Positions 10,988-31,906 are shown, counted from the first letter of the stretch. The stretch: 64,000 nt of DNA from Eubacteriales bacterium (GCA_045533675.1 JAZSIF010000001.1:18980-82979); one strand, 5' to 3'. Translations and numbers: made by a program. Notes: generated from the letters alone by a model not told the origin.

Positions 10988-12388
10988 ATGAATCAAAATC
11001 TCCCCGTCATCCCCGAAACCGTTACCGTCCATTTGGGCGCTCCCTCGGAGAACGCTCCCAACGTAACCGTCCCCTTCCTCGAATACATCACCAACGTCGC
11101 TTCCAGCGAAATCTATCCCACCTGGCCCGAGAACGCGATCCGAGCCAATATTTACGCGCAAATCTCCTTTGTCCTGAACCGTATTTATACCGAGTATTAC
11201 CGCATTCGGGGCTACGACTTTGACATTACCAATAATACCGCCTACGATCAGTATTTTGTCAAGGATCGGGATTATTTTGAAAACGTTGCCGCCATTGCCG
11301 CCGAAATATTTGATACCTATATCGTGCGGCAAGGAAGCGTGGAGCCACTCTTCGCCCAATATTGTAACGGCACCACCGTCACCTGTCCCGGGCTTTCCCA
11401 ATGGGGGACCGTCTCCCTTGCCAATCAGGGATACACACCTTACGAAATTCTGCAATACTATTACGGCGACGACATCAATCTGGTCACTGACACGCCCGTC
11501 ATGAACGTCTCAAGCTCCCTGCCTGACCGACTTCTGCGGCTGGGAACGGCAGGAGACGACGTGCGGCAAATTCAGATCCGACTGAATCGGATTTCCGACA
11601 ACTATCCCTCGATCCCAAAAATCGCTCTGCCCGACGGTGTTTTCTCCTTTGACACCGAGGCGGCGGTACGGCGGTTTCAGGAGATCTTTTCCCTGCCCGC
11701 GGACGGCATCGTAGGAAAATCCACCTGGTACGCCATTCAGTTTATCTACAACGCAGTCAAGCGTCTCAACGAGCTGGACTCCGAGGGGATTACGCTTGAC
11801 GAGGTCACGCAACAATACACAGAGCTCCTCTCCCTCGGCTCTCAAGGCTTAGAGGTGCAGAACGTACAGTATCTGCTTTCCTACCTCTCCGCCTTTTACA
11901 ACGAGATCCCACCCGTCACCATTGACGGGATCTTCGGTCCCTCTACCGACAGCGCCGTCCGCGCGGCGCAATCCCTCTTTGATCTCCCCGTCACGGGAGA
12001 GGTGGATTTCGCTACCTGGGACGTTCTTTACCGAACCTACCTCGGCTTTCTTGCCACCATTCCCTTTCAGTACGTGGAGGGAAATATTCTTCCCTATCCC
12101 GGTGTTCCCTTGCGTCTTGGATCGGAGGATGATTCGGTTCGTGTGCTTCAGGAATACCTCAACTTTATCGCAAGATCCGACGACCGTATTCCCGAAACGG
12201 GTGTTACCGGTTATTTTGGGCAGAGAACCCGTCAATCGGTAATCGCCTTTCAGGAAGCGGCAGGCATCCCCCCTACCGGAACGGTAGCCAGCGTCACCTG
12301 GAACGCCATTGCCGACCGTTACAGCGACCTCTATAACGGCTCCCGTCTTGGGGAAGGACAGTATCCCGGCTATGAGGTCGGACGATAA
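10988..12388 (+). CDS. SleC-like / SpoIID-LytB-like cortex-lytic enzyme with three PG_binding_1 repeats
   Basis: The N-domain reads VASSEIYPTWPENAIRANIYAQISFVLNRIY...LSQWG. It is followed by three repeats of the pattern L.LGS.G..V..LQ..L....DG.FG..T..AV..FQ. Confidence 0.6.
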   Translation: MNQNLPVIPETVTVHLGAPSENAPNVTVPFLEYITNVASSEIYPTWPENAIRANIYAQISFVLNRIYTEYYRIRGYDFDITNNTAYDQYFVKDRDYFENVAAIAAEIFDTYIVRQGSVEPLFAQYCNGTTVTCPGLSQWGTVSLANQGYTPYEILQYYYGDDINLVTDTPVMNVSSSLPDRLLRLGTAGDDVRQIQIRLNRISDNYPSIPKIALPDGVFSFDTEAAVRRFQEIFSLPADGIVGKSTWYAIQFIYNAVKRLNELDSEGITLDEVTQQYTELLSLGSQGLEVQNVQYLLSYLSAFYNEIPPVTIDGIFGPSTDSAVRAAQSLFDLPVTGEVDFATWDVLYRTYLGFLATIPFQYVEGNILPYPGVPLRLGSEDDSVRVLQEYLNFIARSDDRIPETGVTGYFGQRTRQSVIAFQEAAGIPPTGTVASVTWNAIADRYSDLYNGSRLGEGQYPGYEVGR

Positions 12389-17206: not shown

Positions 17207-17234
17207 TTGACAAATCAATTTTTCATGGTATAAT
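17207..17234 (+). promoter_or_regulatory. sigma-A promoter for rplJL
   Basis: TTGACA (17207-12), 16-nt spacer ending TGg, TATAAT (17229-34). Confidence 0.65.
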
Positions 17235-17239
17235 ATTTG

Positions 17240-17405
17240 ATGTTATCCAAAGACAGCAGGTCTCCGTAAAGGCAAATGCCTCCCTGCCGAGGACAAGATC
17301 AATGAAATATTCTTTTCGTTATCTTTCTTCGCGCAAGGACTATGTCTTTCGGAAGAAAGTTTTTTATTTCCTGCTTACACATTTTCACATGGGAGGTGAA
17401 AGAAA
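17240..17405 (+). promoter_or_regulatory. ribosomal protein L10 leader with attenuator terminator
   Basis: A roughly 165-nt 5' UTR before rplJ, ending in the hairpin CTTTCTTC(17323-30)...GAAGAAAG(17352-59) plus TTTTTT. The position and architecture fit the Firmicute L10 leader. Confidence 0.55.
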
Positions 17406-18561: not shown

Positions 18562-19632
18562 TCAAAACAGATTTCCGAGAATCGAGTCAACCAGATCCTC
18601 GTTCTTCTTTGGCTCTTCCTTGGGAGCCTCCTCCGCGGGAGCTTCCTTGGAAACGACTTCCTCAATGGGAGTTGCCTCCTGATCAAAGCCTGCGGCAACG
18701 ATGGTAATTCTCATCTCATCCTCAAGCTCGTTGTCAAATGCCACACCGAAGATCACGCTTGCCTCGGCATTGCACTCGGAGGAGATCATAGAAGCAGCCA
18801 GATCCACATCCTCCAGACCCACGTCGGGAGAAGCGGAAATACTGATGATGATTCCCTTCGCGCCCTTGATCGAGGTCTCGAGCAACGGGCTGGAGATCGC
18901 CATGCCTGCGGCAACCTGTGCCTTATCCTTACCTGTTGCGCTGCCAACGCCCATGTATGCCTTGCCGGAGTTGGCAATGACAGAAGTAACGTCAGCAAAG
19001 TCGATGTTGATAAATCCGGGAACGTTAATGAGATCGGAGATGCTCTGTACCGCACGGCGAAGCACCTCGTCTGCCTCGGTGAACGCATTCATGAGAGTAA
19101 TGCGGGTATCGGTAACCAGCTTCAGTCTCTCGTTGGGAATGACCACCAAGGAGTCTACGTAAGGAGCAAGCTCGGCAATTCCCTCATTGGCGCGGTCCAT
19201 CTTCTTGCGACCCTCAAACTGGAAGGGAGTGGTCACCACACCCACCGTAAGGATCTCCATTTCCTGCGCCAGTCTTGCTACCACGGGGGTAGCGCCCGTA
19301 CCGGTTCCGCCGCCCATACCCGCTGTGATAAAGATCATGTCTGCACCCGAAAGCAGCTTCTTAAGCTCATTGACCGCTTCCTCAGCGGCTCTCTCGCCGA
19401 TCTCGGGGTTGGAGCCCGCGCCGAAGCCATTGGTAATCTTTTCACCGATCACCAGCTGGGTGGTCGCCTTACATCTTCTGAGCGCCTGCTTGTCCGTGTT
19501 GATGGCGATAAAGTCCACGCCCTTTACACCTGCGGCGATCATACGGTTGATGGCATTGTTTCCGCCTCCGCCTACACCGACTACCTTAATCTTTACGCCG
19601 TAATCCATTACGCTATCCTGTTCAAAAGCCAT
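18562..19632 (-). CDS. ftsZ: cell division GTPase FtsZ, distal copy
   Basis: 356 aa with [37 protein letters not shown], a disordered PAEEAPKEEPKK linker and the tail DLVDSILGNLF. RBS AGGAGG is 7 nt upstream. Confidence 0.93.
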   Translation of the reverse strand: MAFEQDSVMDYGVKIKVVGVGGGGNNAINRMIAAGVKGVDFIAINTDKQALRRCKATTQLVIGEKITNGFGAGSNPEIGERAAEEAVNELKKLLSGADMIFITAGMGGGTGTGATPVVARLAQEMEILTVGVVTTPFQFEGRKKMDRANEGIAELAPYVDSLVVIPNERLKLVTDTRITLMNAFTEADEVLRRAVQSISDLINVPGFINIDFADVTSVIANSGKAYMGVGSATGKDKAQVAAGMAISSPLLETSIKGAKGIIISISASPDVGLEDVDLAASMISSECNAEASVIFGVAFDNELEDEMRITIVAAGFDQEATPIEEVVSKEAPAEEAPKEEPKKNEDLVDSILGNLF

Positions 19633-19703: not shown

Positions 19704-20792
19704 TCAAACACCGAACATGGAGCCGAGGAAATCATCCAGATCCACATCCGCCTTCTTTGCGGGTGCTTCCTCTACCTTAGGAGCTTCCTCTGCTTTAAGA
19801 GCTTCCTCTGCCGCCTTGGGAGCTTCCTCTGCCATATCCTTGGAGAAGCCCGTAGCGATGAGGGTGATTCTCATTTCATCCTCCAGCTCGGGATCAAAGG
19901 CTACACCGAAGATCACGTTGGCATCGGGATTGCACTCGTTGGTCACCATGGTACAAGCCACGTCTACGTCGGCAAGTCCCACGTCGGGAGACGCGGTAAT
20001 ACTCAAAATGATACCCGTAGCGCCCTTGATGGAGGTGTCGAGGAGAGGGCTGGAGATCGCCATCTTTGCCGCGTTCTCTGCCTTGTCCTTACCCGACGCG
20101 CTACCGATACCCATATGTGCCAGACCAGAGCGGTACATAACCGAGGTCACGTCCGCAAAGTCCAAATTGATCACACCCTCAATGTTGATCAGCTCGGAAA
20201 TGCTCTGTACGGCACGGCGAAGCACGTCGTCAGCCTCGGAGAAGGCGTTGAAGAGCGTGATTCTTGTATCCGATACCAAACGGAGTCTCTCGTTGGGGAT
20301 CACCACTAAGGAGTCTACGTACTGGCGAAGCTCGTCGATACCCTGAAGTGCCTGATCCATTCTGCGCTTGGACTCAAAGGCAAAGGGGGTGGTTACCACG
20401 CCGACGGTGAGAATATCCATTTCGTGGGCGATTCTTGCCACCACGGGAGCAGCGCCCGTACCCGTTCCGCCGCCCATGCCCGCGGTAATAAATACCATAT
20501 CCGCACCTGCCAGCACGGTCTTAATCTGCTCAATGGATTCCTCCGCGGAGCGCTCACCGATGGATGGGTTGGCACCCGCGCCAAAGCCCTTGGTGATCTT
20601 TTCTCCAATGACGATCTGCGTAGGCGCTACCGAATTTTTCAGCGCCTGACGATCGGTATTGATGGTAATAAACTCGACGCCCTGTACGCCCGACCGAATC
20701 ATACGGTTGACTGCGTTATTTCCGCCTCCGCCAACGCCGACCACCTTAATACAAACGCCGCTCTCAAAGCTTTCGTCACGTTCAAAACTCAT
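19704..20792 (-). CDS. ftsZ: cell division GTPase FtsZ, proximal copy
   Basis: 362 aa from MSFERDE (GGAGGAG 6 nt upstream; the track adds MEEIN). It has [37 protein letters not shown], an [14 protein letters not shown] linker and the tail [12 protein letters not shown]. Confidence 0.93.
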
Positions 20793-20845
20793 GTTGATCT
20801 CCTCCAAATCTTCCTTACGATCGAAATCATAAAATATACATATAT

Positions 20846-21021: not shown

Positions 21022-21825
21022 CTACTGAGATTTGCTCTCGCTGTCTTCGGGAACGACAGGAGGCATTTTGACCGAAACAGCAATAGGATCGTCCGAATTT
21101 TCCGCCGTGATCTCACCGCTCTCGGCACCCGCCAAGCGATCCGATACCAGCACCACTCCGACCTGCTCCAGTTTATAGGAAAGCTCCTCCGCACTGCCGA
21201 GCTTTACCGTGAATTTTTCGTCCACTACCAAGCGGATATTTCGTCTGTCCACCACATTGACCTCGCTCATGCGTCCAAAGTAGGAGCAGGAGCGAATGGT
21301 GTCGATGATCTCCAGCGTTCGGCGAAGCTCATTCTCATCCTCCGCAAAGGAGGGGACAGATCCCGCGATCACTCGTTGAACGTCGGGAAGAATGAGGCGG
21401 GTCATTCCCTCGGTAGACTCGATCTCGTCAATGACCAACAGATTTTCATTGAGGGCATACTTCCCTCCCGATATTTCAATGTACCAGGGGGTAAATCGCT
21501 CGGTAATCACCACCTTGAGTCGGTTGGGGAATATTGGACGTAGTTCCAAATTTAAAAGAAAGGGAAATTCTTTGAGCATTCGCTCCTTGATGGCATCGCT
21601 GTCAAGGTCATAGAGCCAATCCTTCCCACCAAGGTTCAAGCCCTCAATGAGCAGCTCCTCGCTGTATCTTCCTTCACCCTCGATCTCGATGACACCCACC
21701 GTGCAAAAGCGTTTGACAACGGACGCGCAGGAAAGGATCGCCAATGCGCACAATATGATCATCACCATCAGAAGAATCGCTCTACGGATGTTGACACCTT
21801 CCCACCTGGTCCCGTTTCTCTTCAC
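21022..21825 (-). CDS. ftsQ: cell division protein FtsQ/DivIB (POTRA domain)
   Basis: 267 aa with one N-terminal TM segment (ILLMVMIILCALAILSCA), then VIEIEGEGRYSEELLIEGL... (POTRA-like). Its position between murG and ftsZ also fits. Confidence 0.8.
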   Translation of the reverse strand: MKRNGTRWEGVNIRRAILLMVMIILCALAILSCASVVKRFCTVGVIEIEGEGRYSEELLIEGLNLGGKDWLYDLDSDAIKERMLKEFPFLLNLELRPIFPNRLKVVITERFTPWYIEISGGKYALNENLLVIDEIESTEGMTRLILPDVQRVIAGSVPSFAEDENELRRTLEIIDTIRSCSYFGRMSEVNVVDRRNIRLVVDEKFTVKLGSAEELSYKLEQVGVVLVSDRLAGAESGEITAENSDDPIAVSVKMPPVVPEDSESKSQ

Positions 21826-22989: not shown

Positions 22990-24297
22990 CTATTTTTTTT
23001 GCGAGGAATACCGTGAGATCGACAAAATAATTCCGATCTCAAAGATCTGCAACATCAATGAGGAACCTCCCGTGCTGAAAAAGGGCAAGGAAATTCCCGT
23101 GTTCGGCATCATGTTCGTCACTACGGCGATATTCATGGCGACCTGCAAAGCGATCTTAAAGGTCAAGCCCCATACCGCAAGGGCTGAAAATTTATCGGGG
23201 GCTTTCTGCCCGATACGGATGCCCCGCCAAATAAGAAGTCCAAACAAGAGGGTAACCAGGAAGGCTCCCACGAATCCGAGCTCCTCGCAGATGATGGTAA
23301 AAATGAAGTCATTTTGCGGCTGAGACACATAGCCGAATTTTTGTCGGCTGTATCCTAGCCCCAAACCGAAAAATCCACCCGAGCCAATGGCGTACATTCC
23401 CTGCAAGGTTTGCCAAGCAGAACCCAGAGGGTCTGCCTCCTCTAAATTCCACCAAATTTCCACACGGGTCTGGGCATAGTCGGACACGAGGATCAGAAAC
23501 ACACCTGCCACGGCGATGATACCGAGAAAGATGGCAAGATATTTCACGCGTGTCCCGCCCAAATACATGACCACAAGACCGAGCATGCCCACGATCATCA
23601 GTCCCGAAATATGCCGCTCCAGAGCGACCAAAGCGCAGATCACGCCGATGATGCCCATGGGAACCAAAAAGCCGTGCTTGAGGCTTCCGCCGAACTTTCC
23701 CGTGGAGGTGATCTTTTTTTCATACTTCGACATATAGAGCGCCAGCACCAGTACCACCGCCATTTTGGCGATCTCGGAGGGCTGGAGCGTGAAAAAGCCT
23801 AAGTCAATCCAACGCTGCGCCACACCCTCTGCCGCACCGATGACCAGCACCAAAAGCAAGAGGAACATGGAGACGGCATACGCGCCCACGCCAAAGACCC
23901 GCCAAAACCAAGGACGGGCAAAGGCAACGAAAAACGCGGTCACCGCCGTCGCAATGACAGCAAACAAGATGTACCGCCACAGATAATAGGTGGCGCTGTC
24001 ATAATTGCGCTCGGCATATACCGCGCTTGCGCTGTATGACATGATTGCTCCAAAGCAAAGGAGAAGGACCGCCCAAAGAAGAAACCAGCCGTCAATGCCT
24101 CCCTTTTCCAAGGGGGCACTCTCGTCTTCTTTTTTGGCGGGTGTCAAGGGCTCGGTAAACGCCGGGTCCTTTTCCACCATTCTTTGCTCCTGCCTCTCGC
24201 GAAAGAGGGCAAGCTTGCCATTCAGCTTCGATGTGTGTTTCGGTTGTTCGGGCAGATCCCGTTTTTGATTCTCTTGGTTTTCCTTCAAAATCGGCAC
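22990..24297 (-). CDS. ftsW: SEDS-family FtsW/SpoVE
   Basis: 435 aa and about 10 TM segments, containing GSGGFFGLGLGYSRQKFGYVSQPQNDFIF. There is a roughly 70-aa charged N-terminal extension. Confidence 0.88.
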   Translation of the reverse strand: MPILKENQENQKRDLPEQPKHTSKLNGKLALFRERQEQRMVEKDPAFTEPLTPAKKEDESAPLEKGGIDGWFLLWAVLLLCFGAIMSYSASAVYAERNYDSATYYLWRYILFAVIATAVTAFFVAFARPWFWRVFGVGAYAVSMFLLLLVLVIGAAEGVAQRWIDLGFFTLQPSEIAKMAVVLVLALYMSKYEKKITSTGKFGGSLKHGFLVPMGIIGVICALVALERHISGLMIVGMLGLVVMYLGGTRVKYLAIFLGIIAVAGVFLILVSDYAQTRVEIWWNLEEADPLGSAWQTLQGMYAIGSGGFFGLGLGYSRQKFGYVSQPQNDFIFTIICEELGFVGAFLVTLLFGLLIWRGIRIGQKAPDKFSALAVWGLTFKIALQVAMNIAVVTNMMPNTGISLPFFSTGGSSLMLQIFEIGIILSISRYSSQKK

Positions 24298-24329
24298 CTT
24301 CCCTTCTTATTTTCTGTTTCAGGCACTCC

Positions 24330-25322
24330 TCAGAGCGCAAACCATGCCGCAAGGCAGCATAGAGCCGTCACAATTGAGAAGACCGTGACCACCTTCGCCT
24401 CGCTCCATCCGCATTTTTCAAAGTGATGATGGATGGGCGCCATTTTAAAGATTCGCTTATTGCGAAGCTTGAAGCTCCCTACCTGCAGCATCACCGATAC
24501 GGATTCCATAATATACACGAAGCCCACGATGAATACGAGCATGGGCTCGTTGATGATAAACACCGCTCCCGTCACCACACCTCCGAGGAAGAGAGAACCA
24601 GTGTCTCCCATAAACACCTTGGCGGGATGCAGATTATAAATGAGAAATCCGACCATACCGCCCACAAGCGCCCCCGAAAGGAGGGTCAGGGAATCGTGCA
24701 GGTACTGGATTCCCACAAAGCCGAAGAAGCAGAAGACCACAAGGGTCACGGTGCTTGCCAGTCCGTCGATGCCGTCGGTAAGGTTGACACTGTTGACAAC
24801 ACCCACGATGACAAACATGGCAAAGACGTAGTAAAGAATCCCAAGCTCCACGTAAATATCAGTAAAGGGGATATGGAGCATGGTATCAATGTTTCCGAAT
24901 TTCTGCATAAGGAAAATATACGCCACCGCCGCGATGATCTGAAGCAGAGCCTTTTGATATGCCTTCAAGCCTTGATTCTGCTTTTTCATCAGCTTGCAGT
25001 AGTCATCCACAAAGCCGATCATGCCGTTCATGACCGCCAAAGAAAGGGTCAATGCCAAGGGGATCAGCTGACTCTGCTCTCCACGGCAAAGATAGTACAC
25101 CAAAAAGCCAAGCAGGCACAGGAGAATCGCTAAAATAAAGCAGATGCCTCCCATGGTAGGCGTTCCCGCCTTACTCTTGTGCCAATTGGGACCCAGCTCA
25201 TAGATCACCTGTCCCACCTTTTTTTCTCTCAGCTTGGGAATGATGAAGCGCCCCAGCACCGCAGTCAGCAAAAAGCACACTGCCGCCGCCAGTCCGAATT
25301 GTATCCATTGCTCCTTCATCAT
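24330..25322 (-). CDS. mraY: phospho-N-acetylmuramoyl-pentapeptide transferase MraY
   Basis: Contains [31 protein letters not shown] and APIHHHFE. Confidence 0.93.
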
Positions 25323-25344
25323 TTGTCTCCCATCTTATCCGTCT

Positions 25345-26787
25345 TTAGGCTGAAAGCCGCTGACTGTTTTCCTTCAAATACTGAATAATGCGCTCCGCGG
25401 CAGCTCCTCTGCTTGCCTTGACCAAAAGCGTATCTCCTTGACGCAGAGTTCCCAAGAGCATCTCGCCGCTCAGCTCAGGCGAGCGGGTATCGGCATTGCG
25501 ATACATCAACTCGGGGTCCATTCCGCCAAGGATCGCACCCATGGCAATCTGCTCGGCAGACTGTCCAAAGGTATATAAAAGCTCACCGCCCATACGGGCA
25601 AAGTACAGCCCTGTCTCCTCGTGAAATTTTTCTGCATCGCTTCCCAGCTCATACATATCCCCAAGCACTGCCGCCATTCTGCCGCTTCCCTTTCTTTCGG
25701 AAAGGCTGTGGAGCACACGAATCGCCGCGCGCATGGATTCGGGGCTTGCGTTGTAGCAATCCTCGATAATGGTGATCCCACCGATCTCATAGATGTTCTG
25801 TCTCATGCCCACGGGACGGTAGCACATGAGTCCATGCGCGATCGCCTGATCGGACAGATTCATACGCACGCCCACCGCAAACGCGAAGAGGGCGGCATAG
25901 ATATTGTGACGGCCCATGGTGGGGATGGTCACGTCCTTTACGGTCTTACCGAAATATTCTACGTCAAATACAGTTTTTCCGATCTCCTCGCGGATATTCA
26001 CCGCGCGGAAATCACATTCGCTATCGATGCCCACAAATACGGGGATTTTGTTGCCCGTGGGGTAGCAACGAAGCAAGGGCTCGTCGCCGTTGAGAAGTAG
26101 CGCGCCGCCCTCCTTGAGTCCTGCCATGATCTCCATTTTGGCATGGCAGATGTTTTCACGGGAGCCAAGATGCTCCATGTGAGAAGAACCGATGGTGGTC
26201 ACAATGGCTATGTCGGGCTCGGCAATGCGGGACATATATTCGATCTCGCCGAAATCGCTCATGCCCATCTCCAGCACCGATACCTCGGTATCATTCTGCA
26301 TGGAAAGGAGAGACAGAGGCATACCGAGGGTACTGTTGTAGTTTCCTTCGGTCTTATGCACGCGAAACGCTTCGCCAAGCACTGCCGCCACAAATTCCTT
26401 GGTGGTGGTTTTGCCTACACTTCCCGTAATCGCGACCTTTCTGTGGTTCAAACGGCGGTCGTATGCCTTGGCAAGCTCGCCGATGGCGCGTAAGGAATCC
26501 TCTACGACAACCGCCACGTATTTGTGATCCATGGTTTCGGGAATTCTCTCACACAGCACGCAGGCGTTGCCCGAGGAAACGGCGGCGCCGATATAGTCAT
26601 GACCGTCCACACGCTCCCCGCCAAGGGCTACAAAGAGGGTACCCTCTGCCGCCTCACGGGAGTCGGTGCAGACCGAACGAAAAGGAAGATTCCGATTGAT
26701 CTCGCCGCCCACGCAGCACAAAAGACCGCCGCAAATCTGAGCAAGCTCTGCCATCGTCAAGCTGTTACATCCTACGTTGACCTTCAT
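25345..26787 (-). CDS. murF: UDP-MurNAc-tripeptide--D-Ala-D-Ala ligase MurF
   Basis: ITGSVGKTTTKE and a Mur ligase layout. The start is set at MKVNVG (GGGAGGG upstream). The track begins at a GTG 10 codons earlier. Confidence 0.9.
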   Translation of the reverse strand: MKVNVGCNSLTMAELAQICGGLLCCVGGEINRNLPFRSVCTDSREAAEGTLFVALGGERVDGHDYIGAAVSSGNACVLCERIPETMDHKYVAVVVEDSLRAIGELAKAYDRRLNHRKVAITGSVGKTTTKEFVAAVLGEAFRVHKTEGNYNSTLGMPLSLLSMQNDTEVSVLEMGMSDFGEIEYMSRIAEPDIAIVTTIGSSHMEHLGSRENICHAKMEIMAGLKEGGALLLNGDEPLLRCYPTGNKIPVFVGIDSECDFRAVNIREEIGKTVFDVEYFGKTVKDVTIPTMGRHNIYAALFAFAVGVRMNLSDQAIAHGLMCYRPVGMRQNIYEIGGITIIEDCYNASPESMRAAIRVLHSLSERKGSGRMAAVLGDMYELGSDAEKFHEETGLYFARMGGELLYTFGQSAEQIAMGAILGGMDPELMYRNADTRSPELSGEMLLGTLRQGDTLLVKASRGAAAERIIQYLKENSQRLSA

Positions 26788-26818
26788 TCGTTTCTTCCCT
26801 CCCGAGCATTCGCTCACT

Positions 26819-28321
26819 TTATTTCTGATATCCTTCTATCCGTCTGCGATAAGCCTTCCGAAGAATCTCTCGCTCGTCAAAGGGGATCCGTCCCTGTTCG
26901 TTGATCTCGTACTGTTCGTGTCCCTTGCCCGCTAAGAGAAGAATGTCTCCCCGTCCGGCAAGCGATACTGCCCATTCAATGGCTTCGCCTCGGTCGGCGA
27001 TCACCGCATGAGGCTTTTCCTTGTCGATCCCCCGCAAGACATCTGAGAGGATATGCTCTCTTGCCTCTCCCCTGGGGTTATCCGAGGTCAGGATCACGAA
27101 ATCCGCATAGGCGGATGCGATCCGTCCCATTTGCTCCCGTTTGCCTCGGTCTCGCTCGCCGCCGCATCCGAAGAGCAAAAGAAGTCTACCTCCGCCCGCA
27201 CGGAGCGGAAGCAGGGTTTTGAGTATTTTTTCAAGGGCATCGGGGGTGTGGGCGTAATCAATGACCGCCGAGAACTCCGCGGGCGGCTCGAAGCGCACTT
27301 GCTCCATTCTCCCCGTGACCCCCGAGGTCTTTTCAAAAACCTTGAGGATTTTCTCGGGAGCCATTCCCTCCCCCATGGCGACTGCCGCCGCCAGCGTTGC
27401 GTTGATGATCGAAAAATTGCCGGGAATCGACAACCGCGCGGGGTAGCTGCCCACGGGTGTTTTCAGCACAAATCGGCTGCCGCTCATTCCCGTACTCTCC
27501 ACGCGGAGAGCGCAAAAGTCCCCCTCTTCCGTCGAACAGGTCAAAAAAGGAATCGTCAGCTCCTTCGCCAGTCGGCGGATATAAGGATCGTCTATGAATA
27601 AGACCGCTCCTTGGCACCTTGTGAAGAGCCTCCGTTTGGCTTGAAAGTAATCCTCCATCGTGCCATGAAAGTCCAAATGATCCTGTGTCAGATTGGTAAA
27701 TACCGCCCACCGAAATTCGATGGCATCCACACGGGAGAGGGAGAGCGCATGGGAGGAAACCTCCATTATCACGTATTCCACTCCGTCCGCCGCCATCTGG
27801 GCAAGCATTCTGTAAAGCACCTCGGGATCGGGCGTTGTCATATTCGCTAAAGGGTCGCTTCCCCGCGGGGTAAGCATCCGTCCGCCCGCCGAACGGCATT
27901 CCACCGTTCCGATCACGCCGCATATCCTTCCCCACGCTTCGAGAAGCTCCCGAATAAGAAAGGTGACCGACGTTTTTCCGTTGGTTCCCGTCACGCCGAT
28001 GATCTTCAGGCGACCGACGGGGTTTCCGTACCACGCGTTATAGAGCAAAGCAGCCGCATTCCTTGTGTTCTTAAGCACGATCCATGCTGCGGCACCACCC
28101 ACACACACGTCACACACTTGCTCTGCCACTATAACCGAGGCACCTCTTATCATTGCCTCCACCGCAAACTCATGTCCGTCCAAGCGGGTCCCCTTCATGC
28201 AAATGAACAGGCTTCCCGCGCTCACTCTCCGAGAGTCGGTGGCAATGTCTGTAATTTCAATCTCTCCCAGCTCGGGAGGGTAACCAAGTCCGGCTCTGCC
28301 GAACAATTCAAACAGCTTCAT
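26819..28321 (-). CDS. murE: UDP-MurNAc-L-Ala-D-Glu--meso-DAP ligase MurE
   Basis: VTGTNGKTS is present, and the DNPR motif (TSDNPRGE) implies meso-DAP. The start is at MKLFELF (GGAGG upstream). The track GTG at 28354 is also possible. Confidence 0.9.
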   Translation of the reverse strand: MKLFELFGRAGLGYPPELGEIEITDIATDSRRVSAGSLFICMKGTRLDGHEFAVEAMIRGASVIVAEQVCDVCVGGAAAWIVLKNTRNAAALLYNAWYGNPVGRLKIIGVTGTNGKTSVTFLIRELLEAWGRICGVIGTVECRSAGGRMLTPRGSDPLANMTTPDPEVLYRMLAQMAADGVEYVIMEVSSHALSLSRVDAIEFRWAVFTNLTQDHLDFHGTMEDYFQAKRRLFTRCQGAVLFIDDPYIRRLAKELTIPFLTCSTEEGDFCALRVESTGMSGSRFVLKTPVGSYPARLSIPGNFSIINATLAAAVAMGEGMAPEKILKVFEKTSGVTGRMEQVRFEPPAEFSAVIDYAHTPDALEKILKTLLPLRAGGGRLLLLFGCGGERDRGKREQMGRIASAYADFVILTSDNPRGEAREHILSDVLRGIDKEKPHAVIADRGEAIEWAVSLAGRGDILLLAGKGHEQYEINEQGRIPFDEREILRKAYRRRIEGYQK

Positions 28322-28375
28322 CTCTGCCTCCGAGGAACTTGTGTTTTCTTTCACTTCCTCGGCGCACAGCCTTTT

Positions 28376-31039
28376 TTATTCCAGATCGTCGTCCGCGACC
28401 ATGGAACGGAATTTCAGGGTAATGACCGTTCCCGGCTTCACCATAGCTCCGGGCTCTACCGACTGGGCATAAACCTCCGCGTCGGCACCTCTGGTCCCTT
28501 CGATTTTCACATTCAGATTCAATCCCATCAGACGGGCATTGGCGTAGGTTGCGTTTTTTCCCACAAGATCGGGCATCTGAACGGTCTCGGCGGGAGTGGC
28601 ATCCCCTACGTAAAGGATGATCTTTCCCGTATCCTTTTGTACGTAACTGCCCGACGCGGGGCTCTGCGCTTTGACAATACTGCCCTCGGTCACGTCGCCG
28701 ATGATCTCGTATTTGAGACCCATCTTGGTGATAGACTCAATGGCCTTGTTCACGCTCCAGGTACGCCAGCTTCCTACCTTGGTTGCCAGCTTTGCCTCCT
28801 CCTCGGCGGTGTAAATGGCTTCCACACCCAGGTAAGGCAAAATATTTTTCAGTGCCGCGCCCACGTAAGGAGCGGCGACCGTACTTCCGTACATTCCCTT
28901 TTGAGGATCGTCCACCATAATGAGAATGGCGACCTCGGGATCGTCAGCGGGGGCATATGCCACCGTGGAGCAGACGTATGCGTCGGGGAACGTAAGCTTA
29001 ATCACGTCGCCCTTGACCGCGTATATGCCTTGACTCACCGATTGGTCCTTCACCGTACCGTAAATGCCGGTCCCCTCAATGGTGAAATTCAAGCCCGCAG
29101 CCTTGAGAAGCGCCTTGGCACGGTCGAGACTGATCCCCGTCAGCTTGGGAACCTTGACACTCGCCTTGGCGTTCTCCTTGGTAAAGAGAACCACAATCCC
29201 GTTTTCCTTTACCATTTTGGTACCCTCTTGGGGGTTTTGCGAAAGGATCTGAGCATCGTCATTCCCGTCGCCCGCAATTTCCACACGAAGCCCCGCGGCT
29301 TCCAGTGCCGTTTTTGCCTCAGCGAGGGTCATCCCCACGTAGCTTTCCAAAGTAACCGTGGAATGTCCCGTCTCTTTTTTCTCAGAGGTTCCCGTTTTCG
29401 CGGCAACCCGATAGCCCGCCACATAGGCGTTTTTCGCTCCGCCATTGCCCGAAACACCCTCCTCAAGCATCTCGGAGATGGTCTTACAGACCTCTTCGCT
29501 GACCACGGTTCTCTTAACCTCAGCCTTATGCTGATAGATCACGTTTCCCGCCTTGTCGGTGATCTTCTCCACAAGGTAGGGGGTCATCAGCGTGCCGTTG
29601 TTGGCAACCGCCGACACCGCCATGATCTGTTGCAGGGGGGTTACGTTGAAGTTCTGACCGAAGGCGTAGATCGCAAGGTCAAGCTCGGTCTGAAGGTCGA
29701 AGGGTCCAACTCCCTCACCGGGCAGGTCAATGCCCGTTTTTTCCTTATATCCAAACGCCTTATGGTACTGCTTGTAGGTATCAATGCCAACAAGCTCTCC
29801 CAAAGTCATGAACCATACGTTGCAGGATTGCTGCAAGCCCTCGGAAAAGGTCAGGCTTCCGTGACCCTTGCGCTGGTGGCAATGGATCACCTGTCCAAGG
29901 ACGGTCTTATGTCCGGGGCAATACACGCTCCCAGGGATCCCGTCTTTTCTCTCCTCCAGCGCCATGGCGGAGGTGATGATCTTAAAGGTAGAACCGGGAA
30001 TATAGCTCTCAGTCACGGCTTTATTGGACCAGGTCTCGGTCAGGAGCTTCATTTGAAGCGCGCTGTATTCCTCGCTCCCTGCCGTGTAGCCGCTGGACGC
30101 AAGCGCATTCTTTGCCGCTTCATCCATCTCCCAAGGATTGTTCAAATCAAAAGGAGAGGAGGTTGCCATGGCAAGCACCGCGCCTGTCTTGACGTCTACC
30201 ACAATGCCACAGGCACGGTTCATAGCGATATTATCCTCTGCCGTAGCCGCCAGCTGCTCTTCCAGATAGGTCTGAATGGTTGCGTCAATGGTGGTGGTCA
30301 GATCGTAGCCGTCCACGGCTTCGATACAGTTGGCGTAATCAAAGGGCATCACGTTTCCGTAAGAGTCTCTTGCGGTGACGTAATATCCGTCCACACCCTT
30401 GAGATAATCGTTGTATTGGTATTCCAATCCGTAAAGCCCTACGCCGTCATTGCTCGTAAAGCCAATGGCATGAGCGGCAAGGCTGTTCCCGGGGTAATAT
30501 CTTGTGTTTTGCGCTTCCAAATAGATCATCGTGCCGAGTCCATGCTCGTCGATGTATCCACGGATGCGATCGGCGGTCTCTTCGTCCACCTTTCGGGCAA
30601 TGGTTCGGTCCAGATATTTGGAATATTCCACGATCTGATGATAGACCGTATCGTATTCCACGCCATCCAGCAGCTCGGAAAGTCCCCTTGCCACCAGATC
30701 GGGATAATCAGTCGCGTCTCCCTCCTCAACCTCGCTTTGGGCGGTCTTGATACCCGAGGGAGAAACGAACACACGGTAGGTGGTAATGTTGGTCGCCAGT
30801 ACCTTTCCGTTTCGATCATAGATCTTTCCCCGATTGGCGGGGATGGGGGTCTCGGTTGTGATCTGATCGAGCACCTTCCCTTGATATTTTTTAAAATCTA
30901 CGGTCTGAACCAAAAGGATACGGATGAGAAGAACGACGAAGACAGCGAGAATGACGATGCCGAGCGCGGTCGATCGCTTGATCGCCGACCCTTGGATCGA
31001 ACGTTTCACCATTCTGTTCCTCCCTTCCGATTTCTTCAA
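28376..31039 (-). CDS. class B penicillin-binding protein (PBP2B/SpoVD-like) with four PASTA domains, two of them nested
   Basis: N-terminal TM and dimerisation domain, then GSTFK (SxxK), QQSCN (SxN) and AKTGT (KTG). Two PASTA units follow directly after KTGTSEKKE, before the TPase resumes at YVCSTVAYAPADDPEVAILIMVDDPQ. Two more PASTA units sit at the C-terminus. Confidence 0.9.
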   Translation of the reverse strand: MKKSEGRNRMVKRSIQGSAIKRSTALGIVILAVFVVLLIRILLVQTVDFKKYQGKVLDQITTETPIPANRGKIYDRNGKVLATNITTYRVFVSPSGIKTAQSEVEEGDATDYPDLVARGLSELLDGVEYDTVYHQIVEYSKYLDRTIARKVDEETADRIRGYIDEHGLGTMIYLEAQNTRYYPGNSLAAHAIGFTSNDGVGLYGLEYQYNDYLKGVDGYYVTARDSYGNVMPFDYANCIEAVDGYDLTTTIDATIQTYLEEQLAATAEDNIAMNRACGIVVDVKTGAVLAMATSSPFDLNNPWEMDEAAKNALASSGYTAGSEEYSALQMKLLTETWSNKAVTESYIPGSTFKIITSAMALEERKDGIPGSVYCPGHKTVLGQVIHCHQRKGHGSLTFSEGLQQSCNVWFMTLGELVGIDTYKQYHKAFGYKEKTGIDLPGEGVGPFDLQTELDLAIYAFGQNFNVTPLQQIMAVSAVANNGTLMTPYLVEKITDKAGNVIYQHKAEVKRTVVSEEVCKTISEMLEEGVSGNGGAKNAYVAGYRVAAKTGTSEKKETGHSTVTLESYVGMTLAEAKTALEAAGLRVEIAGDGNDDAQILSQNPQEGTKMVKENGIVVLFTKENAKASVKVPKLTGISLDRAKALLKAAGLNFTIEGTGIYGTVKDQSVSQGIYAVKGDVIKLTFPDAYVCSTVAYAPADDPEVAILIMVDDPQKGMYGSTVAAPYVGAALKNILPYLGVEAIYTAEEEAKLATKVGSWRTWSVNKAIESITKMGLKYEIIGDVTEGSIVKAQSPASGSYVQKDTGKIILYVGDATPAETVQMPDLVGKNATYANARLMGLNLNVKIEGTRGADAEVYAQSVEPGAMVKPGTVITLKFRSMVADDDLE

Positions 31040-31090
31040 AATTTTCTTTGAAACGATAGTATTATATGAGAAGCGGAAGGCTTATATTCG

Positions 31091-31906
31091 TCAGTCCAGA
31101 GTGATCCCGAAGGCAGCCAGGAGCGTGGCAAGTCCCACGTTTTGCGGCTTCTTTTCCTCGGGAGCGATGATCTGCTCTTCCCCTTTGGGTTCGAGATATT
31201 CGTTGTCGGCATATTTGCGGGCAATCATTCCAAGGCTCTTTGCGTCCTTGGCGATCTCTTCAGCATCGTATTTCAGATCAAGCGCGGCTTCCAGCTCCAC
31301 TTGCTCCGCTTCCAGCTTCTGAATGGTCGCTTGCGTCTTTCCCACCTTTCCCGAGGCACTCCCCAGCATGACCGATCCGCTGACGATGAGTCCCAAGGAA
31401 ATGGTGAACACGGCGATTCCCGAGAGAACCGAAGCGGGGAGCTTAAACCGTTTGCCCTCGGTCCGTCCCTCCTTGCGCTCAACGGGAAACCATTCCACTG
31501 CCAGTTTCTTCAATGCCGACTTTGCTTGTGCTAAATGACCCTCCTTTCCGTTTGGCTCGGAGCCGATCCGTCCGCCCGAAGCGGAGGCTCTTCTCTGAGG
31601 AACGGCGGGGCTTCTCTGTATGGCAGGCATGTAAAACGCTCTGCGTGTTTTGAAGTAACGAATGAAATCATCGGAGGTCATGTATTTGCTGCCTTGATAC
31701 TCACCGCTGCGATAGCGATCGGCAATCTTGCTCTCGGCATCAAACAGAGTGTATGCTTCGGGAGCCATGCCCCGAACCTCTGCCTCTCTGGCTGTCTGAC
31801 TCGCAAGCTCTCCCTTTACGTTTTCCGAAAAGCCTCTGCCTCTGTAACGGCGGCGAAGCTCCTCCAGACAACGACCGTAGGAATCGTTCATTTGTTCAAC
31901 AGCCAT
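31091..31906 (-). CDS. FtsL-position bitopic coiled-coil protein with a long cytoplasmic N-extension
   Basis: 271 aa with one TM segment (VLSGIAVFTISLGLIVSGSVMLG). This is followed by the FtsL-like IQKLEAEQVELEAALDLKYDAEEIAKDAKSLGM. It lies between rsmH and the PBP gene. Confidence 0.5.
   Translation of the reverse strand: MAVEQMNDSYGRCLEELRRRYRGRGFSENVKGELASQTAREAEVRGMAPEAYTLFDAESKIADRYRSGEYQGSKYMTSDDFIRYFKTRRAFYMPAIQRSPAVPQRRASASGGRIGSEPNGKEGHLAQAKSALKKLAVEWFPVERKEGRTEGKRFKLPASVLSGIAVFTISLGLIVSGSVMLGSASGKVGKTQATIQKLEAEQVELEAALDLKYDAEEIAKDAKSLGMIARKYADNEYLEPKGEEQIIAPEEKKPQNVGLATLLAAFGITLD

What the first reader, a model, noticed from the sequence alone, without database searches (positions are those of the whole stretch)
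28985..29368. Two PASTA domains inserted inside the transpeptidase domain of the division PBP
- **Normal layout.** In class-B PBPs the KTG(T/S) strand is followed within about 15-20 residues by the Y.....G.AP..DP....V.V..P segment.
- **What is seen here.** KTGTSEKKE is followed by about 127 residues forming two PASTA-like units. These read TVTLESYVGMTLAEAKTALEAAGLRVEI...ILSQNPQEGTKMVKENGIVVLFT and SVKVPKLTGISLDRAKALLKAAGLNFTI...VKDQSVSQGIYAVKGDVIKLTF.
- **Where the catalytic domain resumes.** It resumes only afterwards, at YVCSTVAYAPADDPEVAILIMVDDPQKGMYGSTVAAPYVG.
- **Further PASTA units.** Two conventional C-terminal PASTA domains follow (about 28379-28786).
- **Not a recent duplication.** The nested pair is not close in sequence to the C-terminal pair.
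- **Hypothesis.** The inferred insertion point (the loop after the KTG strand) borders the active-site cleft. Muropeptide-sensing modules placed there could gate catalysis.
Basis: partly seen in the sequence, partly recalled or inferred. Interest (0 to 1): 0.65.

Follow-up and report, generated by a model that had tools for sequence, protein, structure and literature searches.

The report
PASTA pair nested inside PBP transpeptidase
A cell-wall cross-linking enzyme of an uncultured gut Clostridia bacterium really does carry two PASTA domains spliced into a hairpin beside its active site, a rare and apparently undescribed layout. Relatives use the same spot for other inserts, or have lost their usual C-terminal PASTA pair.

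Summary
The gene at window 28376-31039 (- strand, 887 aa) is a class B penicillin-binding protein in a dcw cluster. About 128 residues, forming two Pfam-significant PASTA domains (residues ~561-622 and 627-686), sit between the KTG strand (beta3) and beta4 of the transpeptidase domain. They replace a turn of 5-8 residues. Deleting them in silico restores one continuous Transpeptidase match, and AlphaFold2 folds the catalytic domain around them.

The layout is not an artefact. It occurs in 39 protein clusters from independent assemblies, all uncultured Clostridia/Oscillospiraceae-like MAGs.

The nested pair is an old, colinear copy of a PBP-type C-terminal PASTA1-PASTA2 pair. It was not acquired from a kinase.

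Two extensions go beyond the finding. A sister clade keeps only the nested pair and has lost the C-terminal pair. The same loop also hosts a CxxC...CxxC zinc-ribbon-like insert or a ~90-aa insert in other relatives.

The protein is SpoVD-like and carries the Zn2+ tetrad, so calling it "the division PBP" is unproven. I favour a substrate- or divisome-docking module placed at the rim of the active-site cleft. This is a new variant of a known enzyme kind.

The parts
28376..31039 (-). Class B PBP gene, SpoVD-like, 887 aa from a TTG start (878 aa from the ATG at residue 10). It carries the nested PASTA pair.
   Evidence: ORF list. Pfam PBP_dimer, Transpeptidase and PASTA x4. NCBIfam best hit SpoVD. 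Foldseek best hit 7rcz, C. difficile SpoVD.
30902..30970 (-). N-terminal membrane anchor helix, approximately residues 24-46.
   Evidence: Hydrophobic stretch LGIVILAVFVVLLIRILLV. The AF2 model has a helix at 17-46.
30350..30847 (-). Pedestal (PBP_dimer) domain, residues 65-230.
   Evidence: Pfam PF03717, 85.4 bits.
29372..30211 (-). Transpeptidase domain, N-terminal part (residues 277-556). Contains SxxK (S350-K353, 29981-29992), SxN (S405-N407, 29819-29827) and KTGT (K548-T551, 29387-29398).
   Evidence: Pfam PF00905 profile positions 2-270. Motif positions. All motif residues are invariant in alignment A1.
29822..29920 (-). Putative SpoVD-type Zn2+-binding tetrad: C374, C387, H393 and C406 (the X of SxN).
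   Evidence: All four are invariant in 72 homologues. They align with the C...C...H...SCN of C. difficile SpoVD 7rcz. The motif is defined in PMC9334274.
28979..29374 (-). Insert in the beta3-beta4 hairpin, residues 556-687, lying between invariant K555 and invariant Y688.
   Evidence: Alignment to 7rcz leaves residues 557-684 unmatched against a 5-residue turn. Canonical relatives have 7-8 residues here.
29174..29359 (-). Nested PASTA unit a, residues 561-622.
   Evidence: Pfam PASTA 46.2 bits on its own. pLDDT 94-96. Profile-closest to C-terminal PASTA 1.
28982..29161 (-). Nested PASTA unit b, residues 627-686.
   Evidence: Pfam PASTA 41.2 bits on its own. pLDDT 87-95. Profile-closest to C-terminal PASTA 2.
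28811..28978 (-). Transpeptidase domain, C-terminal part: beta4 (688-696), beta5 (703-710) and the terminal helix (723-736).
   Evidence: Pfam PF00905 profile positions 258-298. Aligns to 7rcz residues 489-548. Secondary structure from AF2. Most conserved region of the protein, about 90% identity within the clade.
28598..28783 (-). Conventional C-terminal PASTA 1, residues 753-814.
   Evidence: Pfam PASTA 36.8 bits.
28403..28585 (-). Conventional C-terminal PASTA 2, residues 819-879.
   Evidence: Pfam PASTA 42.2 bits.
31091..31906 (-). Upstream neighbour: FtsL/DivIC-like membrane protein, 271 aa.
   Evidence: Pfam DivIC 24.5 bits, below cut-off. Same position in L001 and L003.
26819..28354 (-). 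Downstream neighbour: MurE-type Mur ligase. The dcw cluster continues with MurF, MraY, FtsW/SpoVE (22990-24297), MurG, FtsQ/DivIB (21022-21825) and two FtsZ genes.
   Evidence: Pfam scans and the gene table of L001.

Best explanation
**What it is.** This is a genuine nested-domain variant of a SpoVD-like, Zn-tetrad-bearing class B PBP, encoded at the ftsL-PBP-murE position of the dcw cluster. A copy of a PBP-type PASTA1-PASTA2 pair was inserted long ago into the tip of the beta3-beta4 hairpin of the transpeptidase domain, directly after the KTG strand. The source was most likely the family's own C-terminal pair.

**What is shown.**
- The catalytic domain stays intact. All three motifs and beta4/beta5/alpha11 are conserved, and the predicted fold closes around the insert.
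- The nested pair is maintained under about the same constraint as ordinary PASTA domains.

**How it most likely works (inferred).**
- The enzyme remains an active DD-transpeptidase working with the neighbouring SEDS glycosyltransferase.
- The nested pair does the usual job of PBP PASTA domains, which is docking to peptidoglycan and/or to DivIB-type partners. It does so from the rim of the active-site cleft.
- This makes it redundant with the C-terminal pair, which a sister clade has lost.
- Because it replaces a loop whose in/out motion controls acylation in other bPBPs, it probably also changes cleft access or loop dynamics. That step is speculative.
For: **Architecture**
- Each nested unit passes the Pfam PASTA threshold alone, and the Transpeptidase match becomes continuous after in-silico deletion.
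- The alignment to solved SpoVD 7rcz is split exactly at the beta3-beta4 turn.
- In the AF2 model the nested units have pLDDT 87-96, and beta4, beta5 and the terminal helix form after the insert.
- Foldseek's best hit is 7rcz, with TM-score (target-normalised) 0.79 across the insert.

**Not an artefact**
- The identical protein occurs in an independent Logan assembly.
- 39 clusters at 90% identity carry the insert with identical junctions. They include two species-representative MAGs.

**Origin**
- hhalign scores: Na-C1 121.5, against 100.8 for outgroup PBP PASTA1 and 50-67 for everything else.
- Nb-C2 scores 96.6 and Nb-outgroup PASTA2 102.4, against 50-80 for everything else.
- Both nested units score only 67-80 against multi-PASTA proteins.

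**Constraint**
- Within the clade the nested units are 55% and 66% identical. The C-terminal PASTA units are 64% and 65%. TPase-C is 90%.

**Redundancy**
- 28-29 clusters form a clade with 100/100 bootstrap support. They keep the nested pair and end about 50 residues after the AP motif, with no C-terminal PASTA.
- They sit at the same dcw position.

**Role of PASTA and of the loop**
- PBP2B PASTA domains strengthen DivIB binding (PMC7654742).
- S. aureus PBP1 PASTA binds peptidoglycan (PMC8493512 abstract).
- The beta3-beta4 loop switches between low- and high-affinity states in N. gonorrhoeae PBP2 (PMC8503634).
Against: - No coordinates or PAE could be extracted, so where the nested pair sits relative to the cleft is inferred from topology only.
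- The truncated TPase-plus-insert model gave pTM 0.70 and lower TPase confidence. Rigid versus flexible docking is unresolved.
- Nb is no closer to the family's own C2 than to outgroup PASTA2. Intragenic origin versus origin from a related PBP is therefore not settled.
- The basal branching order is unresolved. 'All nested monophyletic' appears in 2/100 bootstraps and P0010 never joins clade 4a. Single gain plus loss, or transfer by recombination, both remain possible.
- There is no functional data for any member, and all are from uncultured MAGs.
- The PASTA domain of B. subtilis SpoVD has been reported as dispensable (my own recollection, not checked here). So PASTA function in SpoVD-like proteins may be weak.
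Confidence: 0.62

Rival explanations
1. Regulatory gate. The nested PASTA pair senses muropeptides or lipid II and allosterically opens or closes the catalytic cleft through the beta3-beta4 hairpin.
For: - The insert replaces exactly the loop whose inward/extended equilibrium sets acylation efficiency in N. gonorrhoeae PBP2.
- The C-terminal junction is very short: 4 residues between the last PASTA strand (679-683) and beta4 (688-696). Motion of the pair would therefore be transmitted to the sheet.
- The N-linker motif E-T-G-H is conserved, with G558 invariant.
- PASTA domains of Ser/Thr kinases bind muropeptides (established knowledge).
Against: - The nested units are profile-closest to PBP-type PASTA, not to kinase or multi-PASTA proteins.
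- Ligand binding by PBP PASTA domains is generally weak or unproven (own knowledge).
- Relatives tolerate a zinc ribbon, a ~90-aa insert or a short turn at the same site. That argues for a permissive site rather than a dedicated allosteric port.
- No ligand-binding residues could be assessed.
Confidence: 0.17
2. Antibiotic shield. The bulky insert at the rim of the cleft lowers beta-lactam acylation, giving a low-affinity PBP. It would have been selected in gut or rumen bacteria exposed to beta-lactams.
For: - Resistance in several bPBPs maps to the beta3-beta4 region.
- All carriers whose source is recorded are animal-gut MAGs, for example sheep colon.
- Related Zn-binding C. difficile PBPs underlie cephalosporin resistance (PMC9334274).
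Against: - The insert is old. Nested units of the two clades are only 40-51% identical, so it predates clinical antibiotics.
- It is a copy of a domain pair the protein already had, not a specialised element.
- No resistance genes or mobile elements flank the gene.
Confidence: 0.08
3. Neutral, tolerated domain shuffling. The beta3-beta4 hairpin tip is simply a permissive surface site, and the nested pair has no role beyond the one the C-terminal pair already provided.
For: - Four different loop states occur among proteins with 54-100% identity.
- The zinc-ribbon state is scattered through the tree.
- The canonical state is the most common, at 70 of 149.
Against: - The nested pair is retained with an intact frame in 39 diverged clusters.
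- It is about as conserved as ordinary PASTA units.
- In the clade that lost the C-terminal pair it is the only PASTA module and is never lost.
Confidence: 0.1
4. Artefact: misassembly, a chimeric contig, or a frameshifted or duplicated gene fragment.
For: The source is a metagenome-assembled genome, and read mapping could not be done here.
Against: - The identical protein is in an independent assembly.
- 39 diverged clusters from NCBI, ENA, Logan and JGI have the same junctions.
- There is a single uninterrupted ORF and no composition break.
- Only one copy of beta4-beta5-alpha11 exists, and it is the most conserved region.
Confidence: 0.01

Closest known systems
Clostridioides difficile SpoVD (PDB 7rcz), a Zn2+-binding class B PBP (Sacco et al. 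2022, PMC9334274)
   Same: - Best sequence match among solved structures (E 1e-86) and best structural match.
- Same pedestal plus TPase fold.
- Same Cys/Cys/His/Cys(SxN) tetrad positions.
- Encoded in the dcw cluster.
   Different: - SpoVD has a 5-residue beta3-beta4 turn where this protein has 128 residues forming two PASTA domains.
- Identity is only about 29%.
- This protein scores below the SpoVD equivalog cut-off (498 against 688 bits).
Streptococcus pneumoniae PBP2x, Bacillus subtilis PBP2B and Staphylococcus aureus PBP1 (bPBPs with two C-terminal PASTA domains)
   Same: - Pedestal, TPase and two C-terminal PASTA units.
- dcw location.
- Their PASTA domains act in septal localisation, DivIB binding or peptidoglycan binding (PMC7654742, PMC8493512, PMC9426605).
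- The nested pair is profile-homologous to this type of pair, in the same order.
   Different: - In those proteins every PASTA unit follows the complete TPase domain.
- Here one pair interrupts the TPase domain between beta3 and beta4.
- In 28-29 related clusters the nested pair is the only PASTA module.
Canonical members of the same Clostridia/Oscillospiraceae dcw bPBP family (e.g. P0011, P0036)
   Same: - 62-69% identical over the core.
- Same gene neighbourhood, the same Zn tetrad and the same C-terminal PASTA pair.
   Different: They have a 7-8-residue loop (KK-GEGAEEGD-YICS) where the window protein has the nested pair.
Neisseria gonorrhoeae PBP2 beta3-beta4 loop (PMC8503634)
   Same: The same structural element: the loop after the KTG strand, bordering the active site.
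   Different: There it is a short mobile loop whose conformation tunes beta-lactam acylation. Here it is replaced by a two-domain module.

Membership tests
Class B penicillin-binding protein (monofunctional DD-transpeptidase) | N-terminal membrane anchor plus pedestal (PBP_dimer, PF03717) domain | tested here: met
   PF03717 scores 85.4 bits over residues 65-230. The AF2 model has a helix at 17-46.
Class B penicillin-binding protein (monofunctional DD-transpeptidase) | Transpeptidase domain (PF00905) with SxxK, SxN and KTG motifs | tested here: met
   PF00905 scores 210.7 bits. The motifs are STFK350-353, SCN405-407 and KTG548-550. All are invariant in 72 homologues.
Class B penicillin-binding protein (monofunctional DD-transpeptidase) | Complete five-stranded sheet, with beta4, beta5 and the terminal helix following beta3 | tested here: met
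   The elements are present but displaced by 128 residues. Profile positions 258-298 match at residues 689-731. The AF2 strands are 688-696 and 703-710, and the helix is 723-736. The alignment to 7rcz covers chain residues 489-548.
Class B penicillin-binding protein (monofunctional DD-transpeptidase) | Transpeptidase / beta-lactam acylation activity | not testable with these tools
   This needs purified protein (bocillin-FL binding, a cross-linking assay).
SpoVD (NCBIfam TIGR02214 equivalog) | Score above the curated equivalog cut-off (688 bits) | tested here: not met
   The score is 497.8 bits in 3 stretches. The insert splits the match, so the shortfall is partly architectural.
SpoVD (NCBIfam TIGR02214 equivalog) | SpoVD-type Zn2+ tetrad: Cys, Cys, His, and the Cys of SxN | tested here: met
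   C374, C387, H393 and C406 are invariant and align with 7rcz. The motif definition comes from PMC9334274. Metal binding itself was not tested.
SpoVD (NCBIfam TIGR02214 equivalog) | Sporulation-specific role in cortex synthesis | not testable with these tools
   No sporulation genes were identified among the ORFs scanned in the window. The organism is uncultured.
FtsI/PBP2B-type division bPBP | Encoded between ftsL and murE in the dcw cluster, with a SEDS partner nearby | tested here: met
   Gene order is RsmH, FtsL/DivIC-like, PBP, MurE, MurF, MraY, FtsW/SpoVE, MurG, FtsQ/DivIB, FtsZ x2. This position is shared with SpoVD, so it does not discriminate between the two.
FtsI/PBP2B-type division bPBP | Essential septal function | not testable with these tools
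   This needs genetics. dcw-encoded bPBPs are sporulation-specific in C. difficile (PMC10693644, abstract).
PASTA domain (PF03793) | Each unit scores above the gathering threshold (23.2 bits) on its own | tested here: met
   The four units score 46.2, 41.2, 36.8 and 42.2 bits. The AF2 secondary structure is beta-alpha-beta-beta-beta for each.
Nested (domain-in-domain) architecture | The parent domain is continuous once the insert is removed, and the insert is itself a complete domain or domains | tested here: met
   In-silico deletion gives a Transpeptidase match over profile positions 2-297 of 299. Canonical homologues lack the insert at the same junction.
Nested (domain-in-domain) architecture | The N- and C-termini of the insert lie close together in space | tested here: inconclusive
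The truncated model had pTM 0.70.

The most novel reading that the evidence does not exclude
In this family of gut Clostridia the beta3-beta4 hairpin next to the KTG strand is a modular 'port' on the transpeptidase active site. Lineages plug in alternative modules there: a PASTA pair, a zinc ribbon or a ~90-aa domain. These modules would tune substrate choice, partner binding, redox or metal control, or drug access.

The PASTA pair has effectively been relocated from the C-terminus to the cleft rim. The lineages that lost the C-terminal pair would then show that PASTA function in bPBPs is exerted close to the active site. That would make the nested forms a natural experiment on what PBP PASTA domains do, and on whether beta3-beta4 loop dynamics are required for catalysis.
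Probability: 0.22. Interest if true: 0.78.

Novelty: new variant of a known kind. Interest (0 to 1): 0.58.

Why it matters
- **An open question about PASTA domains.** Their role in class B PBPs is still debated, with ligand sensing, divisome docking and peptidoglycan binding all proposed. The beta3-beta4 loop is considered a dynamic determinant of acylation and beta-lactam resistance.
- **What this family offers.**
  - A PBP that tolerates a 128-residue two-domain module in that loop.
  - Relatives that keep only this module after losing the C-terminal PASTA pair.
  - Others that carry a zinc ribbon at the same place.
  - Together these give a set of natural variants for testing both questions.
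- **Annotation.** HMM-based pipelines under-score these proteins. The SpoVD equivalog falls below its cut-off, and the records call them only 'PASTA domain-containing protein'.
- **Protein engineering.** The hairpin is flagged as a permissive insertion site in PBPs.
- **Limits.** All carriers are uncultured, and no function has been measured.

Tried and rejected
1. **Junction-only database search.** It returned only short fragments of 206-297 aa and did not even list the known nested proteins. The candidate filter appears to depend on length, so the search was uninformative.
2. **Exhaustive search of 50%-identity representatives with the junction segment.** No representative matched colinearly. 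All full-length bPBP hits had PASTA units about 80 residues or more after KTG. This is useful as a negative result, because it confines the layout to this one family. It cannot count members, because the whole family collapses into a few representatives.
3. **AFDB structural survey.** The library was not available.
4. **Truncated TPase-plus-insert prediction as a proxy for rigid docking.** pTM was 0.70 and the TPase part itself lost confidence, so the test was inconclusive.
5. **Model coordinates.** They are not exposed to the sandbox, so distances from the insert to Ser350 could not be measured.
6. **Kinase origin of the insert.** Rejected by profile comparison.
7. **Misassembly.** Rejected.
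8. **Second PBP or PASTA kinase in the window.** None was found among the ORFs scanned.
9. **Pfam identity for the alternative inserts.** The CxxC...CxxC insert gave only sub-threshold zinc-ribbon hits, and the ~90-aa insert gave nothing.
10. **Literature searches for a prior description of PASTA nested in a transpeptidase domain.** None was found, including in a 2025 survey of bPBP architectures (PMC12516126). Subscription-only papers were not searchable.
Full report
**1. What is in the sequence**

The finding lies inside a single uninterrupted ORF on the minus strand, window 28376-31039. It is 887 aa from a TTG start, or 878 aa from the ATG at residue 10. The shorter form is identical to database protein P0001. 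Coordinates 28985-29368 encode residues 558-685.

The whole-protein Pfam scan gives a pedestal domain (PBP_dimer, 65-230), a Transpeptidase match split into two stretches, and four PASTA stretches.

I then scanned the pieces separately:

| Piece | Pfam family | Score |
|---|---|---|
| Nested unit a | PASTA (cut-off 23.2) | 46.2 bits |
| Nested unit b | PASTA | 41.2 bits |
| AYVCSTVAYAPADDP... | Transpeptidase, profile 258-298 of 299 (cut-off 22.1) | 24.8 bits |
| C-terminal unit 1 | PASTA | 36.8 bits |
| C-terminal unit 2 | PASTA | 42.2 bits |

A version of the protein with residues 557-686 deleted in silico gives one continuous Transpeptidase match, profile positions 2-297 of 299, at 217 bits. 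The three catalytic motifs are STFK350-353, SCN405-407 and KTGT548-551. GC content shows no break across the insert.

**2. Exactly where the insert sits**

The closest solved structure is C. difficile SpoVD (7rcz). It is the best match by sequence (E 1e-86) and by structure (Foldseek TM-score 0.79 normalised to target).

In the sequence alignment, query 55-556 pairs with chain 7-483 and query 685-743 pairs with chain 489-548. About 128 residues therefore replace a 5-residue turn between the KTG strand (beta3) and beta4.

The AlphaFold2 model was built from a 72-sequence alignment (mean pLDDT 83.4, pTM 0.73). It folds both nested units as beta-alpha-beta-beta-beta modules with pLDDT 87-96. After the insert it forms beta4 (688-696), beta5 (703-710) and the terminal helix (723-736).

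Only four residues separate the last strand of nested unit b from beta4. The N-side linker (SEKKETGHS) is less confident, at pLDDT about 72.

**3. It is real and it recurs**

The identical protein is present in an independent Logan assembly with the same neighbours. Among the best 120 homologues, 27 have the same insert with the same junctions: KTGTSEKK-ETGH... on one side and ...TFPE(A/G)Y-(V/I)CSTVAYAP on the other.

A profile built only from nested proteins separates them cleanly from the rest. 39 clusters at 90% identity score 1322-1468 bits, while canonical forms start at 1236.

Two species-representative genomes carry the insert. One is a sheep-colon Clostridia MAG (881 aa). The other is an Eubacteriales MAG (749 aa).

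Source names are only 'PASTA domain-containing protein' from Clostridia, Ruminococcaceae or Oscillospiraceae MAGs.

In an exhaustive search of 1.84 billion representatives at 50% identity, no protein outside this family matched the junction colinearly. Every full-length bPBP hit had its PASTA units about 80 residues or more after KTG. The layout is therefore rare and confined to one family.

**4. Where the insert came from**

Pairwise identity between nested and C-terminal units of the window protein is low, at 13/46 and 24/59. The copy is therefore old. Profile-profile comparison nevertheless shows colinear homology:

| Comparison | hhalign score |
|---|---|
| Nested a vs family C-terminal PASTA 1 | 121.5 |
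| Nested a vs PASTA1 of more distant bPBPs | 100.8 |
| Nested a vs everything else | 50-67 |
| Nested b vs family C-terminal PASTA 2 | 96.6 |
| Nested b vs outgroup PASTA2 | 102.4 |
| Nested b vs everything else | 50-80 |
| Either nested unit vs multi-PASTA proteins | 67-80 |

The insert is thus a PBP-type PASTA1-PASTA2 pair in its original order. It most likely came from the family's own C-terminus, although a related PBP cannot be excluded as the source. A kinase origin is rejected.

**5. Constraint**

Within the window's clade (10 sequences), mean pairwise identity is as follows:

| Region | Identity |
|---|---|
| Nested PASTA a | 55% |
| Nested PASTA b | 66% |
| C-terminal PASTA 1 | 64% |
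| C-terminal PASTA 2 | 65% |
| Pedestal and N-terminal TPase | 79-81% |
| C-terminal TPase piece | 90% |

The nested units behave like ordinary PASTA domains. The displaced beta4-beta5-helix segment is the most conserved part of the protein, as expected if it completes an active catalytic domain.

**6. Two extensions beyond the finding**

(a) *Relocation.* 28-29 clusters of 733-748 aa have the nested pair but end about 50 residues after the AP..DP motif, with no C-terminal PASTA at all. They form a clade with 100/100 bootstrap support and occupy the same dcw slot. In these lineages the PASTA module has effectively moved from the C-terminus into the catalytic domain.

(b) *Hotspot.* The same 7-8-residue loop between invariant K555 and Y688 has four states among 149 family members:

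| Loop state | Clusters |
|---|---|
| Short canonical loop | 70 |
| ~34-aa CxxC...CxxC zinc-ribbon-like insert (sub-threshold Pfam hits only) | 35 |
| ~90-aa insert with no Pfam match | 3 |
| PASTA pair | 38-39 |

The zinc-ribbon state is scattered among canonical forms in the tree.

The outgroup-rooted NJ tree places the nested clades as a basal grade, but that order is not supported. 'All nested monophyletic' appears in 2/100 replicates. P0010, which has the nested pair plus the C-terminal pair, never groups with the window's clade. I cannot tell one gain followed by loss from transfer by recombination.

**7. What kind of PBP it is**

The gene order is RsmH, FtsL/DivIC-like, PBP, MurE, MurF, MraY, FtsW/SpoVE, MurG, FtsQ/DivIB and two FtsZ genes. 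That slot is used both by division PBPs and by SpoVD.

The best NCBIfam model is SpoVD, at 498 bits. That is below its 688 cut-off, partly because the insert splits the match.

The protein has the SpoVD-type zinc tetrad defined by Sacco et al.: two Cys, an invariant His, and the Cys of SxN. Here these are C374, C387, H393 and C406, all invariant in 72 homologues.

In C. difficile the dcw-encoded bPBP is sporulation-specific (PMC10693644). 'Division PBP' is therefore unproven. No second PBP or PASTA kinase was found among the ORFs scanned in the window.

**8. How it most likely works**

*Shown:*
- an intact catalytic domain with a folded two-domain module at the beta3-beta4 hairpin tip;
- conservation of that module;
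- loss of the C-terminal pair in a sister clade.

*Established elsewhere:*
- The beta3-beta4 loop borders the active site. In N. gonorrhoeae PBP2 it exchanges between an extended low-affinity state and an inward high-affinity state (PMC8503634).
- PBP2B PASTA domains strengthen DivIB binding (PMC7654742).
- S. aureus PBP1 PASTA binds peptidoglycan (PMC8493512).

*Inferred:*
- The nested pair does the normal PBP-PASTA docking job (peptidoglycan and/or DivIB-type partner) from the cleft rim. This makes the C-terminal pair dispensable.
- It probably also alters loop dynamics or cleft access.
- A pair, rather than a single unit, may be needed so that the insert's two ends meet at the hairpin. This rests on my recollection of the compact antiparallel PASTA arrangement in PBP2x and was not tested here.

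*Rivals:*
It is possible but untested, and the permissiveness of the site counts against it.
- A beta-lactam shield. The insert's age counts against this.
- Neutral tolerance. Retention of the insert counts against this.

**9. Limits**

- A truncated model meant to probe rigid docking was inconclusive, with pTM 0.70.
- The AFDB library was unavailable.
- One database search was wasted.
- No paper describing PASTA nested in a transpeptidase domain was found, including in a 2025 survey of bPBP architectures. Subscription journals are not covered.

**10. Verdict**

The structural interpretation is supported, and the mechanistic hypothesis is untested. This is a new variant of a known enzyme kind: rare, conserved, apparently undescribed, and part of a broader insertion hotspot at the active-site hairpin. 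It is of moderate to high interest for PBP and PASTA specialists. That interest is limited by the absence of any cultured carrier or functional data.

Noticed in passing
Homologues P0020, P0029, P0037, P0060, P0076, P0100, P0115, P0116 and others (35 of 149 family members). The site is equivalent to window residues 556-687 (28979-29374).: A ~34-aa CPxCG...CxxC zinc-ribbon-like insert occupies exactly the same beta3-beta4 loop in many relatives. All 35 have the CxxC...CxxC pattern, but Pfam gives only sub-threshold zinc-ribbon hits. The state is scattered among canonical forms in the tree. That suggests repeated gain and loss, or recombination.
   Followed up: partly
Homologues P0084, P0120 and P0341 (851-854 aa), at the same loop site.: A ~90-aa insert (KSTYDFAEAFASAV...NQINGMIALA...) with no Pfam match replaces the loop in a small clade (monophyletic in 88/100 bootstraps). 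Members are labelled as Ruminococcaceae or Oscillospiraceae MAGs. Its fold and function are unknown.
   Followed up: partly
Homologues P0048, P0062, P0073 etc., and L003 4357-6606.: A clade of 28-29 clusters keeps the nested PASTA pair but has no C-terminal PASTA domains (733-749 aa). The PASTA module has effectively been relocated into the catalytic domain.
   Followed up: yes
window 29822-29920 (- strand), residues C374, C387, H393 and C406.: This is a SpoVD-type Zn2+-binding tetrad (Cys, Cys, His, Cys of the SxN motif), as described for C. difficile PBPs. It is invariant across 72 homologues. Metal binding was not tested.
   Followed up: partly
window 18562-19632 and 19704-20807 (both - strand).: Two tandem FtsZ genes, 68% identical over 360 residues, lie at the end of the dcw cluster. 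Both have complete Tubulin and FtsZ_C domains.
   Followed up: partly
window 22990-26817 (- strand).: No murD-like ligase lies between mraY (24330-25322) and the FtsW/SpoVE gene (22990-24297). Only two Mur ligases (MurE-like and MurF-like) are in the cluster.
   Followed up: no
window 31091-31906 (- strand).: The FtsL-slot protein is unusually long, at 271 aa. It has a long cytoplasmic N-terminal region and only a sub-threshold DivIC match near the C-terminus. The same long form is found in L001 and L003.
   Followed up: no
window 17229-17374 (+ strand).: A ribosomal protein L10 leader (Rfam RF00557, 50.7 bits) is the only Rfam match in the window at gathering threshold.
   Followed up: no
window 10988-12388 (+ strand).: A 466-aa protein with three PG_binding_1 repeats, likely a cell-wall hydrolase or binding protein, lies about 16 kb from the PBP.
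   Followed up: no
window 28118-31051 (+ strand).: A 977-aa antisense ORF spans the whole PBP gene. It has a low-complexity, Arg/Gly/His-rich translation and was taken as a spurious shadow ORF.
   Followed up: no
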